The position numbers were made by a program, and so were the translations under genes. Positions 11,300 to 53,190 of a stretch of DNA of 64,000 bases are shown piece by piece. The stretch lies in the IMG/VR virus record IMGVR_UViG_3300016665_000824, positions 70,297-134,296 of that record. One strand, written 5' to 3'. The DNA comes from a virus. Position 1 is the first letter of the stretch. The number at the start of each line of letters is the position of its first letter. Under the pieces are notes generated by a model that saw only the letters and a program-made list of their open reading frames with translations, was not told the DNA's origin and did no database searches.

Positions 11300-11755
11300 A
11301 TGTCTAACTCTAGTTCTGCCACAAAATTGGCGATCGCAAGATTAAAAGGATCTGACCTGCCTATTTTTGTTCCAGTTTCAGTCTCTGAGAAAGTCGCAAC
11401 CCTAGTCAGGGAGTGTATTTTACAGTCCGACAGTTTAAAGATATTAAAAGTTACTACTACAGTTTACAACGAGCTTACTAAGCATTTAAAGCAGTACGAA
11501 AAGCCAAAATATACCATTCCTCAGTATCTTTTGATGCTCCTATATACGGTTTCTACTACTTCAGAATTGATCGAAAAACACAACAAGGGTTTAATTTCAG
11601 ATGACGAGTTTATTAACTGTATCAAAAACAACAAAAACGCAAACGGGACTAAAACCTCCCGCAAAATGGGTCGGAAGAAAGCAAGCGTTGATGCCAGCGA
11701 TCGCGCAGTACTTCCCCGCGAGGTTCACAAAAGAACCAGTTCCAAGGTTTCTTGA
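11300..11755 (+). CDS. hypothetical protein (3' end uncertain; overlaps MTase gene in another frame)
   Basis: 151-aa ORF; last ~40 codons look non-coding and overlap the Dam-like ORF. Confidence 0.3.
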   Translation: MSNSSSATKLAIARLKGSDLPIFVPVSVSEKVATLVRECILQSDSLKILKVTTTVYNELTKHLKQYEKPKYTIPQYLLMLLYTVSTTSELIEKHNKGLISDDEFINCIKNNKNANGTKTSRKMGRKKASVDASDRAVLPREVHKRTSSKVS

Positions 11756-12518
11756 TTTCAAAAAGGGTGTCGGCAATTTCCACGACCCTTTCGTTGGTAC
11801 TGGTAGTGCATTTTTGTATTTTGCGGATGGATTTCGAGGCGATCGCAAGATTTTTATTAGTGACAGTAATCCTGAACTCATTAATATTTGGCTGTGCATT
11901 CAAGCCGATCCTCTAAGGCTTTTAAGATCCTTGCTTGAATACAAGCGCCCTGTATTTAACAGCGCCGAATCGTACTATCACGAAAGGCAGATCTTCAATC
12001 AGCAGTTTAAAGGTTCTTACGACTACGAGCTAGCAGCAAGAATGATCTACTTAATTCAGGCTGGTTTCAATAGCCTATGGAGGGTTAACAGCGACGGTGA
12101 AATGAACACGCCTTTTGGCTCTCAGAAGCAAATTGCCCTTCTTACCGAGAATGATTTGACCGCGCTTTCGGTTCTCCTTCAAAAAGCGACAATCAAACAT
12201 CAGCCTTTTGAAGAGTCGCTAAAAGATGTACAACCCAATGATGTCGTCTATCTCGACCCGCCATACATTGAAGTCAAAAAGAATTCCTTCAATAAATACA
12301 CCACAAAAGGTTTTAGCAGAGAGCAGCAGATACTCCTCCGCCAAGAAGCCGATCGCCTGCACGATCTAGGCGCTTATGTATACGCCAGTAATAGCGATAC
12401 CCCCTTGAGTCGCGAAATTTGGTCGGGCTGGAAAATCGCAGAACTGACGAGATCGGGCTGCATGAACTCAGATGCAACCAAGCGTCAACGGGTTGGAGAG
12501 TTGTTATTTTATAAATAA
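11601..12518 (+). CDS. N6-adenine DNA methyltransferase, Dam family (D12 class)
   Basis: KWVGRK (cf. KWAGGK), FVGTGSAF SAM-binding motif, and DPPY catalytic motif (VVYLDPPYIE) in the translation. Confidence 0.8.
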   Translation: MTSLLTVSKTTKTQTGLKPPAKWVGRKQALMPAIAQYFPARFTKEPVPRFLDFKKGVGNFHDPFVGTGSAFLYFADGFRGDRKIFISDSNPELINIWLCIQADPLRLLRSLLEYKRPVFNSAESYYHERQIFNQQFKGSYDYELAARMIYLIQAGFNSLWRVNSDGEMNTPFGSQKQIALLTENDLTALSVLLQKATIKHQPFEESLKDVQPNDVVYLDPPYIEVKKNSFNKYTTKGFSREQQILLRQEADRLHDLGAYVYASNSDTPLSREIWSGWKIAELTRSGCMNSDATKRQRVGELLFYK

Positions 12519-12542
12519 AAAAAGCCAGTCGCGGGACTGGCT
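12516..12542 (-). terminator. hairpin with U-run on minus strand
   Basis: agccagtc-gcgg-gactggct preceded on plus strand by A7; would terminate minus-strand (antisense) transcripts inside a plus-strand gene block. Confidence 0.35.
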
Positions 12543-12618: not shown

Positions 12619-13122
12619 ATGGATATTAGCACAGAATTAAAACAAATCACTGTGAGATCGATGCGAGGAGGCAGCTTTTCGTTCGGTCCTCACGATATTC
12701 GAGTCGATCGCGGGTCGATCTTAGGCAATCCCTACGAGATGGCGAAAGATGAATCCAATCGCGATCGCGTATGCCTTGCCTACAAGCACTGGCTATTTGC
12801 AAATATTCGGTACTGGCTGGACATGAAAGAAAAAGGCATTGCAAAGGCTCTCTGGTGGCATATCGATCCAAAGAGCATAGCGATCGCCTCGGATTTAAGA
12901 ATTGCTCCGTCGTGGAAGCAGTTCACTGTTGCTCAGGTGGAGAGTGAATTTACTCGCCTCTGCTATGAAGCAACCCAGCACGATATCAACCTCATTTGCT
13001 GGTGCTTTCCAAAAGCTTGCCATGCGGATGTACTGCGAGCAGCCTTGATCTGGTACTACGAGGAGCATTACTTAAAGGAGTGCTCACGGATTGAAACGAC
13101 TATTAAAGAATTTTTTAGGTAA
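12619..13122 (+). CDS. DUF4326-family protein
   Basis: GNPY and CWCFPKACHADVL motifs resemble the DUF4326 signature as recalled (GNPF ... CWC.P..CH); start moved to ATG 12619 because upstream part of ORF 12472.. contains the hairpin. Confidence 0.45.
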   Translation: MDISTELKQITVRSMRGGSFSFGPHDIRVDRGSILGNPYEMAKDESNRDRVCLAYKHWLFANIRYWLDMKEKGIAKALWWHIDPKSIAIASDLRIAPSWKQFTVAQVESEFTRLCYEATQHDINLICWCFPKACHADVLRAALIWYYEEHYLKECSRIETTIKEFFR

Positions 13123-13127
13123 ACACT

Positions 13128-13394
13128 ATGAGAAAACAAGTCCACTATGCCGTTCGCGCCGTTAAAGCCTTGATGGATGGCGATGTTGTAACAATCGATG
13201 GGATGGATTATATCTATCAAGACGGGCAGATACTGATAAGGGCTACTCGCATTGAAGACGGCGTTGAGTCTGAAGTATGGCTGGGAGGAATGTGCTCCGA
13301 AATGAGTCTCGACTACTTTTTGAATTACTGCGCCAACAAAACTTTTGAAGATCAAGTTCTCGATTTTCCCGTAAAAATTCCATCACGGTACTAA
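13128..13394 (+). CDS. hypothetical protein
   Basis: 88-aa ORF. Confidence 0.4.
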   Translation: MRKQVHYAVRAVKALMDGDVVTIDGMDYIYQDGQILIRATRIEDGVESEVWLGGMCSEMSLDYFLNYCANKTFEDQVLDFPVKIPSRY

Positions 13395-14407: not shown

Positions 14408-14413
14408 AAATAT

Positions 14414-14450
14414 AAAAAGACGATCCGACGTGAGATCGGATCGTCTTTTT
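14414..14450. terminator. bidirectional intrinsic terminator between convergent gene blocks
   Basis: Perfect 15-bp stem aaaaagacgatccga / tcggatcgtcttttt, 7-nt loop, A/T tracts on both sides. Confidence 0.7.
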
Positions 14451-14578
14451 ATATTTTGGTAGGCTGTGAAACAACTAATACAAAAGGGTTTTAGGGTATT
14501 GGAAGGAATTTTGGTAAGGTGTGAATCTCGCTGCTTTTTAATTACGCGAATACACGTAATTCATATTTACCAATACCT

Positions 14579-52249: not shown

Positions 52250-52633
52250 TTATACCTGAGTGGCGAAGTATTTAGAGGCGATCGCGATAAGCCTTAATTG
52301 TTCGCTGGGATAAATCCCTGAAGGTCCAACTGCCTCATATAGTCTCTTTAGCACCTCAGCTTTGCCGTACTCGGAAATCAGTAAAGCCCATCCAAGTACA
52401 TGTAGCTGGAACAAAAGCTCTTTCTGGAGCCGTTCCTTATGAGCTGTACTCTTACCCTTAAACGTCGGATGTCGAACCTCTCGTACTCGCAGCTTGTTTT
52501 TCGGGAAGGAAATGTAGAGACTTGAGGTTAGGTATTCATCTATCAGAACGAGAAGTTCTTGGCGATCTTTTTGTAAGAGTTCTGCTTGCATAGACATACT
52601 CAAAAACCTTTGTATTTCTGCCAAGAAGTCCAA
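52250..52633 (-). CDS. hypothetical protein
   Basis: 127-aa ORF. Confidence 0.4.
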   Translation of the reverse strand: MDFLAEIQRFLSMSMQAELLQKDRQELLVLIDEYLTSSLYISFPKNKLRVREVRHPTFKGKSTAHKERLQKELLFQLHVLGWALLISEYGKAEVLKRLYEAVGPSGIYPSEQLRLIAIASKYFATQV

Positions 52634-53190
52634 AGGTTTTTTACTTCAATACCCTTTTTCTTGGCATATTTCACACAGTTAGCCGTACCACCTCTCGACC
52701 CGTCCCATAGTGCGAGCATTCTGTTAGCCCGATCGCACATCCACTCATTCCTAATCTGCATCGCCGCAGCCGAGTATGGCACATCAGGGCAATGCACGGC
52801 GATCGCCTTGTCGCAGATATACTGCCATTGGTCTTGCTGCGACTGACTCCACTTAAATGAGTGGTTTAAGCAAGGTACTGCGGCGACGAGAGGTATTTCT
52901 AATTCGATCGCTGCTAATGCGATCGCGGTGTCCCATCCCAAAGCCATGCCAGAAATAACAATTACAGGTCTTTCTTGCATCAAGGCATTCTTAGCAAGGG
53001 TAGTAAGTCTGGGCAGGGTTAAGGATTCGTATTGACTCCACGTACTTTGCAGCTTCTGGGGGCGATGTCCTGTGCCAGCAACGACTAATTGCCCGTCGGT
53101 AAGATCGAGTTTAATGTCGGAGGAGTCTGATTCGCTACCTATAGGAATATTAACTTGGAGCCAGTGATCGGTGATTGATATTGTTTTCAT
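52600..53190 (-). CDS. SLOG-superfamily protein (DUF1273/YpsA- or DprA-like Rossmann fold)
   Basis: VVAGTGHRP, VIVISGMALGWDTAIALAA and GSRGGTANCV motifs. Confidence 0.4.
   Translation of the reverse strand: MKTISITDHWLQVNIPIGSESDSSDIKLDLTDGQLVVAGTGHRPQKLQSTWSQYESLTLPRLTTLAKNALMQERPVIVISGMALGWDTAIALAAIELEIPLVAAVPCLNHSFKWSQSQQDQWQYICDKAIAVHCPDVPYSAAAMQIRNEWMCDRANRMLALWDGSRGGTANCVKYAKKKGIEVKNLWTSWQKYKGF

What the first reader, a model, noticed from the sequence alone, without database searches (positions are those of the whole stretch)
12619..13122. DUF4326-like protein immediately downstream of the Dam-like MTase
The protein carries GNPY and CWCFPKACH motifs reminiscent of DUF4326, a domain of unknown function. 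Its placement after an orphan adenine MTase and before a run of small genes suggests a role linked to DNA modification or anti-restriction.
Basis: partly seen in the sequence, partly recalled or inferred. Interest (0 to 1): 0.4.

Follow-up and report, generated by a model that had tools for sequence, protein, structure and literature searches.

The report
Phage DUF4326 protein beside Dam methylase
The gene is a real, well-conserved cyanophage member of the widespread but experimentally untested DUF4326 family, probably a small cysteine-dependent enzyme acting on phospho-ribose nucleotides, and its position next to a Dam methylase is a habit of this one phage lineage rather than a family rule.

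Summary
ORF 12619-13122 (+, 167 aa) matches Pfam DUF4326 at 53.9 bits (cutoff 25) and carries the GNPY and CWCFPKACH motifs. It follows a D12 Dam-like methyltransferase (11601-12518). The gene is under purifying selection (dN/dS 0.09) and sits in the early/replication region of a roughly 134-kb cyanophage.

The proposed link to DNA methylation is not supported as a family property. I sampled about 80 independent DUF4326 loci outside this lineage. None has a D12 methylase nearby, 5 have an N6_N4 methylase within 2 kb (p about 0.12 against farther flank), and no Pfam family recurs in more than 2 of 149 immediate neighbours.

Other evidence points elsewhere:
- Relatives are fused to SLOG and Macro domains.
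- Members give sub-threshold matches to DUF488 models.
- The invariant residues lie at the C-terminal edge of a small alpha/beta sheet.
- The same phage carries a separate YpsA-like SLOG gene (52600-53190, -), homologous to the partner in a SLOG-DUF4326 fusion.

This fits the published prediction of a rhodanese-phosphatase-like enzyme acting on NAD+/ADP-ribose-derived phosphates. That mechanism is inferred, not shown, and no solved structure resembles the protein.

Verdict: an ordinary new member of a known, uncharacterised family.

The parts
12619..13122 (+). DUF4326-domain protein gene (167 aa plus stop)
   Evidence: PF14216 at 53.9 bits, E 2.9e-14. Sixteen close homologues at 61-100% identity. 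dN/dS 0.09. AF2 model with pLDDT 89.8.
12706..12735 (+). Conserved loop after strand 2: D30-R31-x-S33-x-L35-G36-N37-P38-Y39 (family signature DRxSxLGNP[FY])
   Evidence: Each position is conserved in 82-96% of 167 family representatives: D, S and L in 82-90%, R, G, N and P in 94-96%, F/Y together in 96%. The same positions are nearly invariant in alignment A2.
12760..12762 (+). R48, an invariant arginine at the N-terminus of helix 1
   Evidence: R in 163 of 163 aligned representatives. Invariant in A1 and A2. Helix 48-72 in the model.
12814..12927 (+). Helical insertion of about 40-45 residues (roughly residues 66-103) that the Pfam model and minimal 100-aa members lack; contains the sub-family motif GL.IA..WK
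   Evidence: Residues 24-139 map onto profile positions 10-80 of 82. The segment is a gap in P0018. About 105 of 167 top representatives have residues in these columns.
12997..13023 (+). C127-W-C129-F-P131-K-A-C134-H135: the invariant Cys/His loop between strand 3 and helix 3, and the putative active site
   Evidence: C127 in 166/167, C129, C134 and H135 in 167/167 representatives. Strand 123-127 and helix 135-166 in the model.
13054..13119 (+). Lineage-specific C-terminal extension of helix 3 (residues 146-167, YLEEC.KIETTI.EFF)
   Evidence: Present only in the roughly 16-18 lineage members of 167. Lower pLDDT, 65-79.
11601..12518 (+). D12-class (Dam-like) N6-adenine DNA methyltransferase, upstream neighbour
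   Evidence: PF02086 at 147.6 bits. PADLOC MTase_II and oMTase models. DPPY and FxGxG motifs conserved.
12523..12542 (.). Perfect 8-bp-stem hairpin (AGCCAGTC-GCGG-GACTGGCT) in the 100-nt MTase-DUF4326 spacer
   Evidence: Terminator-like only on the minus strand, where a T-run follows it. The region folds better than shuffles, z -2.98.
52600..53190 (-). Stand-alone YpsA/DUF1273-like SLOG-domain protein in the same phage, homologous to the fusion partner of DUF4326 in protein P0125 (possible functional partner; inferred)
   Evidence: 38% identity, E 3e-35 to the N-terminal SLOG domain of the SLOG-DUF4326 fusion P0125. Sub-threshold Pfam hits to DNA_processg_A and YpsA. Phage relatives are annotated DUF1273/SLOG, and one is a DUF4326-SLOG fusion in Myxococcus phage Mx1.

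Best explanation
The ORF is a genuine, selected gene for a stand-alone DUF4326-domain protein of the insertion-bearing sub-family. It is encoded in the early/replication region of a large cyanophage.

Shown:
- Family membership.
- A compact three-strand, three-helix alpha/beta core with a helical insert.
- An invariant residue set: D30, R31, S33, G36-N37-P38, R48, C127, C129, C134, H135 and an acidic residue at 137.

Inferred: all of these residues lie in loops or helix starts that follow the strands, which is the usual ligand pocket of Rossmann-like folds. The domain therefore most likely binds an anionic phospho-ribose ligand. Candidates are an NAD+/ADP-ribose-derived nucleotide or a phosphorylated nucleic-acid end. 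The two arginines and the N-termini of helices 1 and 3 would hold the ligand, and one cysteine of the CWCxPxxCH loop (probably C127 or C129), with H135, would remove or transfer the phosphate.

This is the activity Burroughs, Iyer and Aravind predicted for DUF4326 as a divergent branch of the rhodanese-phosphatase superfamily. In the phage it would help process or destroy host NAD+/ADP-ribose-based signals or damage, possibly together with the phage's separate SLOG protein.

Its position after the Dam-like methylase reflects shared membership of an early-gene cassette in this lineage, not a mechanistic partnership.

The confidence of 0.42 is for the whole statement. Family identity alone is about 0.97, an enzyme or ligand pocket rather than a structural role about 0.6, and the specific phospho-ribose/ADP-ribose substrate class about 0.35.
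For: - Identity: PF14216 at 53.9 bits. Foldseek against viral models returns DUF4326 proteins (E 4.5e-5 to 6e-5, TM up to 0.76 on the target).
- Real gene: dN/dS 0.09 and full-length conservation.
- Conserved residues.
- Topology: strands 10-14, 26-28 and 123-127; helices 48-72, 104-120 and 135-166. The same core appears in the minimal homologue. This places the DRxSxLGNP loop right after strand 2, R48 at the start of helix 1, and CWCxPxxCH between strand 3 and helix 3.
- Link to NAD/ADP-ribose biology: relatives are fused to YAcAr, cpYpsA, YpsA and DprA-type SLOG domains and to Macro. Viral structural neighbours include DUF2493 (SLOG) and a NADAR protein annotated with a tyrosine phosphatase. 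The window itself encodes a SLOG protein homologous to a DUF4326 fusion partner, and a Dolichospermum contig has both genes 2.3 kb apart.
- Link to the DUF488 clade: 35 of 80 family members hit PF22751 (DUF488-N3a) and 20 of 80 hit PF04343 (DUF488) at E<=0.05, while no other family is hit by more than 1.
- Literature: PMC9503650 and PMC7824862 predict exactly this.
- Genomic setting among replication and nucleotide-metabolism genes.
Against: - No experiment exists for any DUF4326 protein: 8 papers mention it and none is functional.
- No solved structure is similar. Best Foldseek PDB hits have E 6 for the full model and E 1.7 for the minimal model. RapZ appears only at E 3.2-4.1 with TM 0.38-0.49.
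- No PDB sequence relative appears even with a profile.
- The canonical CX5R phosphatase signature is absent. Position 133 is Ala, and R140 (C134+6) is K, R or A across the family.
- The window protein itself gives no DUF488 hit at E<=0.1, and E. coli YeaO (DUF488) aligns to the family profile at only 7.6% probability.
- Three Cys plus one His, all invariant, would equally fit a zinc site.
- The SLOG gene is 39 kb away and the two genes rarely co-locate (1 of 80 loci).
Confidence: 0.42

Rival explanations
1. Zinc-stabilised nucleic-acid- or protein-binding module. C127, C129, C134 and H135 chelate a structural zinc ion. The protein acts non-enzymatically, for example by binding DNA ends, replication proteins or a host factor during early infection.
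For: Four invariant potential ligands (C, C, C, H) sit within nine residues. Neighbours across the family are mostly replication proteins such as PolA, DnaB, SNF2, primase and RNR. In the window it lies near DnaG and DnaB. No structural match to any enzyme was found.
Against: A second invariant cluster far away in sequence (DRxSxLGNP and R48) is hard to explain by a zinc knuckle alone, and it sits where Rossmann-like enzymes bind ligands. C134 and H135 are adjacent, which is awkward geometry for two ligands of one ion. The related DUF488 protein YeaO keeps the DR motif and the His but has no Cys at these positions (weak alignment), so the fold probably does not need a metal site. The fusion partners are ligand-processing domains, Macro and SLOG.
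Confidence: 0.17
2. Functional partner of the adjacent Dam-like methyltransferase. It modulates, extends or protects phage DNA modification, or acts as an anti-restriction factor co-expressed with the methylase.
For: The order MTase then DUF4326 on the same strand is conserved in all lineage relatives, down to 61% protein identity. Five other loci have an N6_N4 MTase within 2 kb, always on the same strand, and one has a C5 MTase adjacent. PMC7824862 mentions fusions to replication or R-M components.
Against: No D12 MTase lies near DUF4326 in about 80 independent loci. MTases of any class make up about 1-2% of the +-1 and +-2 neighbours, with no significant distance enrichment (p about 0.12). 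There are no MTase fusions among the 120 best relatives. The closest out-of-lineage relatives and related cyanophages lack the adjacency. In several lineage members another ORF separates the two genes, and in the window a hairpin-containing spacer does. There are no PADLOC hits.
Confidence: 0.1
3. Thiol-redox or sulfur-transfer protein serving nucleotide metabolism, for example a reductant or accessory for ribonucleotide reductase. It would use the CWC...C cysteines as a disulfide relay, as arsenate-reductase or rhodanese-type members of the same superfamily do.
For: Ribonucleotide reductase is the single most recurrent neighbour: 5 loci within 3 kb, all on the same strand, and 4 of 135 genes at +-2. 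The C-terminal motif hits a PHROG annotated NrdA-like. Three cysteines are invariant.
Against: RNR adjacency is still only about 6% of loci. No RNR was found among the window ORFs that were scanned, though only part of the window was scanned. The invariant arginines and the GNP loop suggest an anionic ligand rather than a protein disulfide substrate. The fusion partners are SLOG and Macro, not redox domains.
Confidence: 0.07

Closest known systems
Pfam PF14216 (DUF4326) proteins of phages, giant viruses and bacteria, e.g. Nodularia phage vB_NspS-kac68v161 gp061 (YP_009844870.1)
   Same: Above-threshold HMM match. The same DRxSxLGNP[FY], R and LxCWCxPxxCH signature. The same predicted fold. About 32% identity to the Nodularia phage protein.
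   Different: Carries a helical insert of about 40-45 residues that the Pfam model lacks, although about 60% of the best-scoring representatives share it. It also has a lineage-specific C-terminal helix extension. The Nodularia and Pseudanabaena phage genes are not next to a methylase.
SLOG-DUF4326 and Macro-DUF4326 fusion proteins (e.g. P0125, P0037, P0088, P0093, P0160; Myxococcus phage Mx1 'DUF4326 and YspA-like SLOG domain protein')
   Same: Homologous DUF4326 domain, including the insert in P0125, P0043 and P0093. The window phage also has a SLOG protein 38% identical to the SLOG half of P0125.
   Different: Here the two domains are separate genes 39 kb apart on opposite strands. The window protein is single-domain.
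[quoted passage not shown]
   Same: Family-level sub-threshold sequence similarity to both DUF488 models (also P0080). A small alpha/beta core with a conserved DR motif after a strand, and a Cys/His loop before the last helix. RapZ is among the highest-TM (but non-significant) PDB hits for the minimal model.
   Different: The window protein itself does not hit DUF488 models. Foldseek similarity to RapZ is not significant (E 3.2-4.1). RapZ-C is an RNA- and sugar-phosphate-binding domain with no shown catalysis.
Classical cysteine phosphatases and rhodaneses (PTP, DSP, Cdc25, LMW-PTP/ArsC) with the C-X5-R P-loop
   Same: A cysteine at the end of a beta-strand, followed by a loop leading into a helix N-terminus, with conserved arginines nearby. 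This is where those enzymes bind phosphate.
   Different: There is no C-X5-R: the loop is C-W-C-x-P-x-x-C-H, and the only Arg at +6 (R140, from C134) is not conserved. The sheet has three strands rather than four or five. No significant structural or sequence match exists to any such enzyme.

Membership tests
Pfam PF14216 DUF4326 | HMM score above the curated gathering threshold | tested here: met
   53.9 bits against a cutoff of 25, E 2.9e-14. All 16 close homologues carry the precomputed PF14216 annotation.
Pfam PF14216 DUF4326 | Signature residues DRxSxLGNP[FY], the invariant Arg of helix 1, and LxCWCxPxxCH | tested here: met
   All are present in the window protein (D30, R31, S33, L35, G36, N37, P38, Y39, R48, L125, C127, W128, C129, P131, C134, H135). 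They match columns conserved in 82-100% of 167 representatives.
Pfam PF14216 DUF4326 | Predicted fold matches other family members | tested here: met
   Foldseek against BFVD: most of the 50 listed hits are annotated DUF4326 proteins, the best annotated one at E 6.1e-5 with TM 0.71 on the target.
[quoted passage not shown] | Detectable sequence relationship to DUF488 | tested here: inconclusive
   At family level, 35/80 members hit PF22751 and 20/80 hit PF04343 at E<=0.05, with a best E of 1.5e-5. The window protein has no such hit at E<=0.1, and YeaO against the family profile gives only 7.6% probability.
[quoted passage not shown] | Structural similarity to a solved member (RapZ-C, PTP, rhodanese) | tested here: inconclusive
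   There are no significant PDB matches. RapZ 8b0j_A has E 3.2 and TMq 0.49; RapZ-C 5o5s has E 4.1 and TMq 0.38; no PTP or rhodanese chain appears among the 50 listed hits.
Classical Cys phosphatase / rhodanese active site | C-X5-R (or C-X4-R) P-loop signature | tested here: not met
   C127+6 is Ala and C129+6 is His135. C134+6 is R140 in the window, but that position is K (81), R (35) or A (19) across 167 representatives.
Classical Cys phosphatase / rhodanese active site | Catalytic activity dependent on the conserved cysteine | not testable with these tools
   No biochemical data exist for any DUF4326 protein in the searched literature.
Methylase-linked DNA-modification or anti-restriction module | Conserved gene-neighbourhood or fusion association with DNA methyltransferases beyond one lineage | tested here: not met
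   A D12 MTase occurs in 0 of about 80 independent loci. An N6_N4 MTase lies within 2 kb in 5 loci and a C5 MTase is adjacent in 1, which is not significantly enriched. There are 0 MTase fusions among 120 relatives.
Known anti-phage defence or anti-defence families | Match to a curated defence-system model | tested here: not met
   No PADLOC hit for the DUF4326 protein. The only anti-defence mention in the literature is DUF4326 as a C-terminal domain on amoeba-virus homologues of the anti-Avs protein ORF83.
Structural zinc-binding domain | Four ligands positioned to chelate one zinc ion; metal present | not testable with these tools

The most novel reading that the evidence does not exclude
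The stand-alone DUF4326 protein, alone or with the phage's separate YpsA-like SLOG protein (52600-53190), is a new type of phage counter-defence enzyme. It would use a cysteine/histidine loop unlike any characterised phosphatase to dephosphorylate or cleave a host immune nucleotide. Candidates are a TIR-, SIR2- or ADP-ribosyl-cyclase-derived ADP-ribose signal, or an ADP-ribosylated or phosphorylated DNA end. This would make the first biochemically tractable entry point into a family with thousands of members across phages, giant viruses and bacteria.
Probability: 0.15. Interest if true: 0.7.

Novelty: new member of a known kind. Interest (0 to 1): 0.27.

Why it matters
DUF4326 is large: 5,766 representative clusters at E<=0.001. 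It spans phages, giant viruses, bacteria and archaea and has no experimentally known function. Comparative-genomics work places it in NAD+/ADP-ribose conflict systems.

This particular copy adds little that is new:
- It confirms the family signature in a cyanophage lineage.
- It shows that the tempting 'Dam partner' reading is a local synteny effect.
- It supplies a Rosetta-stone-style hint, with SLOG and DUF4326 fused elsewhere but separate in this phage.

Its value is as one more clean, single-domain, well-modelled (pLDDT about 90) candidate for the biochemical test the family still lacks.

Tried and rejected
1. PDB sequence search with the single protein and with an 80-sequence profile gave no relative.
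2. Foldseek against PDB with the full model and with a minimal 100-aa homologue gave nothing significant. RapZ appears only at E>3, so the rhodanese-phosphatase/RapZ-C relationship could not be confirmed structurally.
3. The 'CHADVLR = C-X5-R' idea is rejected, because R140 is not conserved across the family.
4. E. coli YeaO (DUF488) against the family profile gave only 7.6% hhalign probability.
5. The Burroughs and Aravind 2023 paper could not be retrieved by DOI, by a guessed PMC id or by text search. Its content is cited from memory only.
6. The search for related loci with the broad alignment A2 failed because no stretch was conserved enough. It was replaced by a degenerate DNA pattern for CWCxPxxCHx[DE].
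7. DUF4326 as the cognate restriction enzyme of the Dam-like MTase is rejected. It has no nuclease motif or family hit, and the family occurs overwhelmingly without MTases.
8. A search for an 81-83-aa ORF, or for the Cys-less DUF4326 paralogue seen in relatives, found both absent from the window.
9. A search for a SLOG gene on the 92-kb relative contig carrying DUF4326 found none among the top 80 of 229 SLOG loci. This is uninformative, because the contig is partial and the list truncated.
10. PADLOC gave no defence-system hit.
11. Megablast of 11 kb of the window against phage GenBank records gave no match.

Full report
**Observation.** ORF 12619-13122 on the + strand encodes 167 residues.
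- GNPY is residues 36-39 (nt 12724-12735) and CWCFPKACH is residues 127-135 (nt 12997-13023).
- hmmscan gives one Pfam hit, PF14216 DUF4326, at E 2.9e-14 and 53.9 bits against a gathering score of 25. PHROGs gives phrog_464, function unknown, at E 1.4e-18.
- The gene directly upstream (11601-12518) is a D12-class Dam-like N6-adenine methyltransferase (PF02086, 147.6 bits) with the FxGxG and DPPY motifs conserved.
- Both parts of the observation are therefore correct.

**Start codon and selection.**
- The start at 12619 is the right one. Homologues begin at the same place, and the closest relative has a TTG at the homologous codon.
- The longer reading frame from 12472 overlaps the methylase, and its extension is not conserved.
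- Against the 88%-identical relative, dN/dS is 0.09, so this is a functional protein-coding gene.

**Setting.** The window is part of a large cyanophage genome.
- It encodes a portal protein, DnaG primase, DnaB helicase, a DNA polymerase III beta clamp, an M23/SLT lysin-type protein and HNH and GIY-YIG nucleases.
- The identical DUF4326 protein is recorded on a 134,398-bp metagenomic contig. Relatives occur on IMG/VR viral contigs.
- The cyanobacterial HIP1 octamer GCGATCGC occurs 186 times against 1.1 expected.
- The nearest isolated phages with a homologue, at about 32-36% identity, infect Nodularia and Pseudanabaena.
- There is no near-identical DNA among the GenBank phage records.

**The protein.**
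- Sixteen close homologues (61-100% identity), all metagenomic, form the lineage.
- A profile search of 1.84 billion representatives finds 5,766 clusters at E<=0.001, so the family is very large.
- Across 167 representatives the conserved residues are D30, R31, S33, L35, G36, N37, P38, F/Y39, E45, R48, L125, C127, W128, C129, P131, C134, H135 and D/E137.
- R140 would make 'CHADVLR' look like a C-X5-R phosphatase motif. It is K, R or A in other members, so it is not a defining residue.

**Predicted structure.**
- AlphaFold2 gives a confident model (pLDDT 89.8, pTM 0.84) with strands 10-14, 26-28 and 123-127 and helices 48-72, 104-120 and 135-166.
- A minimal 100-aa homologue gives the same three-strand, three-helix core.
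- Compared with the 82-position Pfam model, the window protein has an extra helical segment of about 40-45 residues (roughly residues 66-103). About 60% of the best-scoring representatives share it.
- It also has a C-terminal helix extension found only in its own lineage.
- Every invariant residue falls in a loop or helix start that follows a strand. This is where Rossmann-like enzymes, including Cys phosphatases and rhodaneses, bind their ligands. That reading is an inference from topology, because I could not access the model coordinates.

**Structural and sequence relatives.**
- No solved structure is detectably related by sequence, whether searched with the single protein or with a profile.
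- None is related by fold either (best E 6; best E 1.7).
- In the minimal-model search, RapZ and its C-terminal domain appear with relatively high TM scores for that list (0.49 and 0.38) but non-significant E-values (3.2 and 4.1). This is compatible with the published claim of a relationship but does not confirm it.
- Against predicted viral structures, the hits are DUF4326 proteins. They include fusions with DUF2493 (SLOG) and a protein annotated as NADAR with a tyrosine phosphatase, plus one DUF488 protein.
- At family level, 35 of 80 members give sub-threshold hits to PF22751 ('Active DUF488-N3 subclade') and 20 of 80 to PF04343 (DUF488). No other family is hit by more than one member.
- The window protein itself gives no such hit, and E. 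coli YeaO aligns to the family profile with only 7.6% probability.

**Literature.**
- Eight held papers mention DUF4326 and none reports an experiment.
- Iyer et al. [quoted passage not shown] They predict an enzyme bridging NAD+-based signalling with DNA modification.
- Iyer et al. [quoted passage not shown] - A 2025 preprint notes DUF4326 at the C-terminus of amoeba-virus homologues of the anti-Avs protein ORF83.
- The dedicated paper (Burroughs and Aravind 2023, cited) is not held. From memory, it defines a RapZ-C-DUF488-DUF4326 clade.

**Fusions re-tested here.**
- Among multidomain representatives, the partners are YAcAr, cpYpsA, YpsA and DprA-type SLOG domains and Macro.
- Among the 120 best profile hits in the 5.8-billion-protein set, one is fused to SLOG and none to a methylase.

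**Methylase co-occurrence: within the lineage.**
- The order MTase then DUF4326 on one strand, followed by two conserved small ORFs and a convergent DnaG, is kept in every locus.
- Several relatives insert an 81-83-aa ORF between the two genes.
- Two relatives carry a Cys-less degenerate DUF4326 paralogue just downstream.

**Methylase co-occurrence: outside the lineage.**
- I collected 250 DUF4326-bearing loci from IMG/VR and GTDB genomes. They collapse to 82 clusters at 60% identity.
- A D12 methylase was found near DUF4326 only in the window's own lineage.
- An N6_N4 methylase lies within 2 kb in 5 of about 80 loci, always on the same strand. Two more lie at 5-9 kb.
- Relative to the flank DNA available (276 kb within 2 kb, 371 kb beyond), this is a 3.4-fold excess with binomial p about 0.12.
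- Pfam scans of 149 immediate neighbours and 135 second neighbours found no family in more than 2 and 4 genes respectively.
- The recurring themes are ribonucleotide reductase, DNA polymerase A, SNF2 and DnaB helicases, ThyX and primases. Single cases of C5 methylase, SAM synthetase, SIR2 and Macro also occur.
- The three closest out-of-lineage relatives lie beside DNA polymerase A, an integrase and DUF5131.
- The Nodularia and Pseudanabaena phage genes have no annotated methylase nearby.
What remains is lineage synteny within an early-gene cassette.

**An additional lead.**
- The non-DUF4326 parts of the fusion proteins were searched against all window ORFs. One strong hit came back: ORF 52600-53190 (-), 195 aa, is 38% identical (E 3e-35) to the N-terminal SLOG domain of the SLOG-DUF4326 fusion P0125.
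- Its Pfam hits are just below threshold: DNA_processg_A at 28.2 bits against 29.6, and YpsA.
- Its phage relatives (262 records) are annotated DUF1273, YpsA-like, SLOG or 'GTP-binding domain'. One is a 'DUF4326 and YspA-like SLOG domain protein' in Myxococcus phage Mx1.
- This phage therefore carries, as two separate genes 39 kb apart, the two domains that are fused elsewhere.
- A Dolichospermum contig has the same pair 2.3 kb apart on one strand, but that is 1 of about 80 loci. The hint is real but weak.

**Most likely mechanism (inferred).** The protein is probably a small thiol-dependent enzyme.
- It would bind a phospho-ribose-containing ligand, either an NAD+/ADP-ribose derivative or a phosphorylated nucleic-acid end.
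- R31, R48, the GNP loop and the N-termini of helices 1 and 3 would hold the ligand.
- A cysteine of the CWCxPxxCH loop, together with H135, would remove or transfer the phosphate.
- In the phage this would serve counter-defence or nucleotide salvage.
- I put about 0.97 on family identity, about 0.6 on 'enzyme or ligand pocket', and about 0.35 on the specific substrate class.

**Rival explanations.**
- A structural CCCH zinc site in a non-enzymatic binding module: 0.17.
- A genuine methylase partner: 0.10.
- A thiol-redox role linked to ribonucleotide reductase: 0.07.

**Verdict.** The functional interpretation is not supported beyond lineage synteny. This is an ordinary new member of a known but experimentally uncharacterised family. 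Its interest lies in the family as a whole rather than in this copy.

Noticed in passing
window 52600-53190 (-): Stand-alone YpsA/DUF1273-like SLOG-domain protein (195 aa). It is 38% identical to the SLOG half of a SLOG-DUF4326 fusion protein (P0125). Its Pfam hits are just below threshold.
   Followed up: partly
whole window: The cyanobacterial HIP1 palindrome GCGATCGC occurs 186 times in 64 kb (1.1 expected), about one per 344 bp. GATC occurs 524 times against 277 expected. The phage genome mimics a HIP1-rich host, and every HIP1 copy contains a GATC site that the phage's Dam-like methylase would presumably target.
   Followed up: partly
window 12523-12542: Perfect 8-bp-stem hairpin (AGCCAGTC-GCGG-GACTGGCT) in the spacer between the MTase and DUF4326 genes. 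It is flanked by an A-run upstream, so it looks like an intrinsic terminator only on the minus strand, although both flanking genes are on the plus strand.
   Followed up: partly
window 14410-14454: A 20-bp-stem palindrome (ATATAAAAAGACGATCCGATC...) at the convergent junction between the plus-strand small-gene run and the minus-strand DnaG gene. It looks like a terminator, possibly bidirectional.
   Followed up: no
window 11300-11755 and 11601-12518: The 151-aa ORF upstream of the methylase overlaps the methylase ORF by 155 nt. The methylase N-terminal KWVGRK motif lies inside the overlap. A similar overlap of about 128 nt is present in the closest relative L009, whereas gene callers truncated the methylase in L001.
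   Followed up: partly
L002 6504-6899, L006 2044-2439 (also L003, L004, L010): Directly downstream of the DUF4326 gene, some relatives carry a 131-aa degenerate paralogue. It lacks the N-terminal strands and all three conserved cysteines (hhalign probability 93%). This may be a pseudo-enzyme partner. It is absent from the window.
   Followed up: partly
L001 5675-5920, L002 5658-5909: An 81-83-aa ORF lies between the MTase and DUF4326 genes in part of the lineage. It is absent from the window, L006 and L009, which shows the cassette is mosaic.
   Followed up: partly
window 13128-13394 (+): 88-aa ORF just downstream of DUF4326. It has no homologue in the lineage relatives examined and only a weak PHROG hit. 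It occupies the slot where relatives carry the degenerate paralogue.
   Followed up: no
L002 7630-8823; L007 3105-4292 and neighbours: IS605-family OrfB/TnpB (Cas12f1-like TNB domain) transposase genes are inserted near the DUF4326 gene in a lineage relative and in Nodularia phages. This indicates mobile-element traffic in this region of the cyanophage genomes.
   Followed up: no
L216 2509-2892 and 5211-5828: A Dolichospermum sp. MAG contig has a DUF4326 gene and a YpsA-like SLOG gene 2.3 kb apart on the same strand. It is the only such case among about 80 loci.
   Followed up: no
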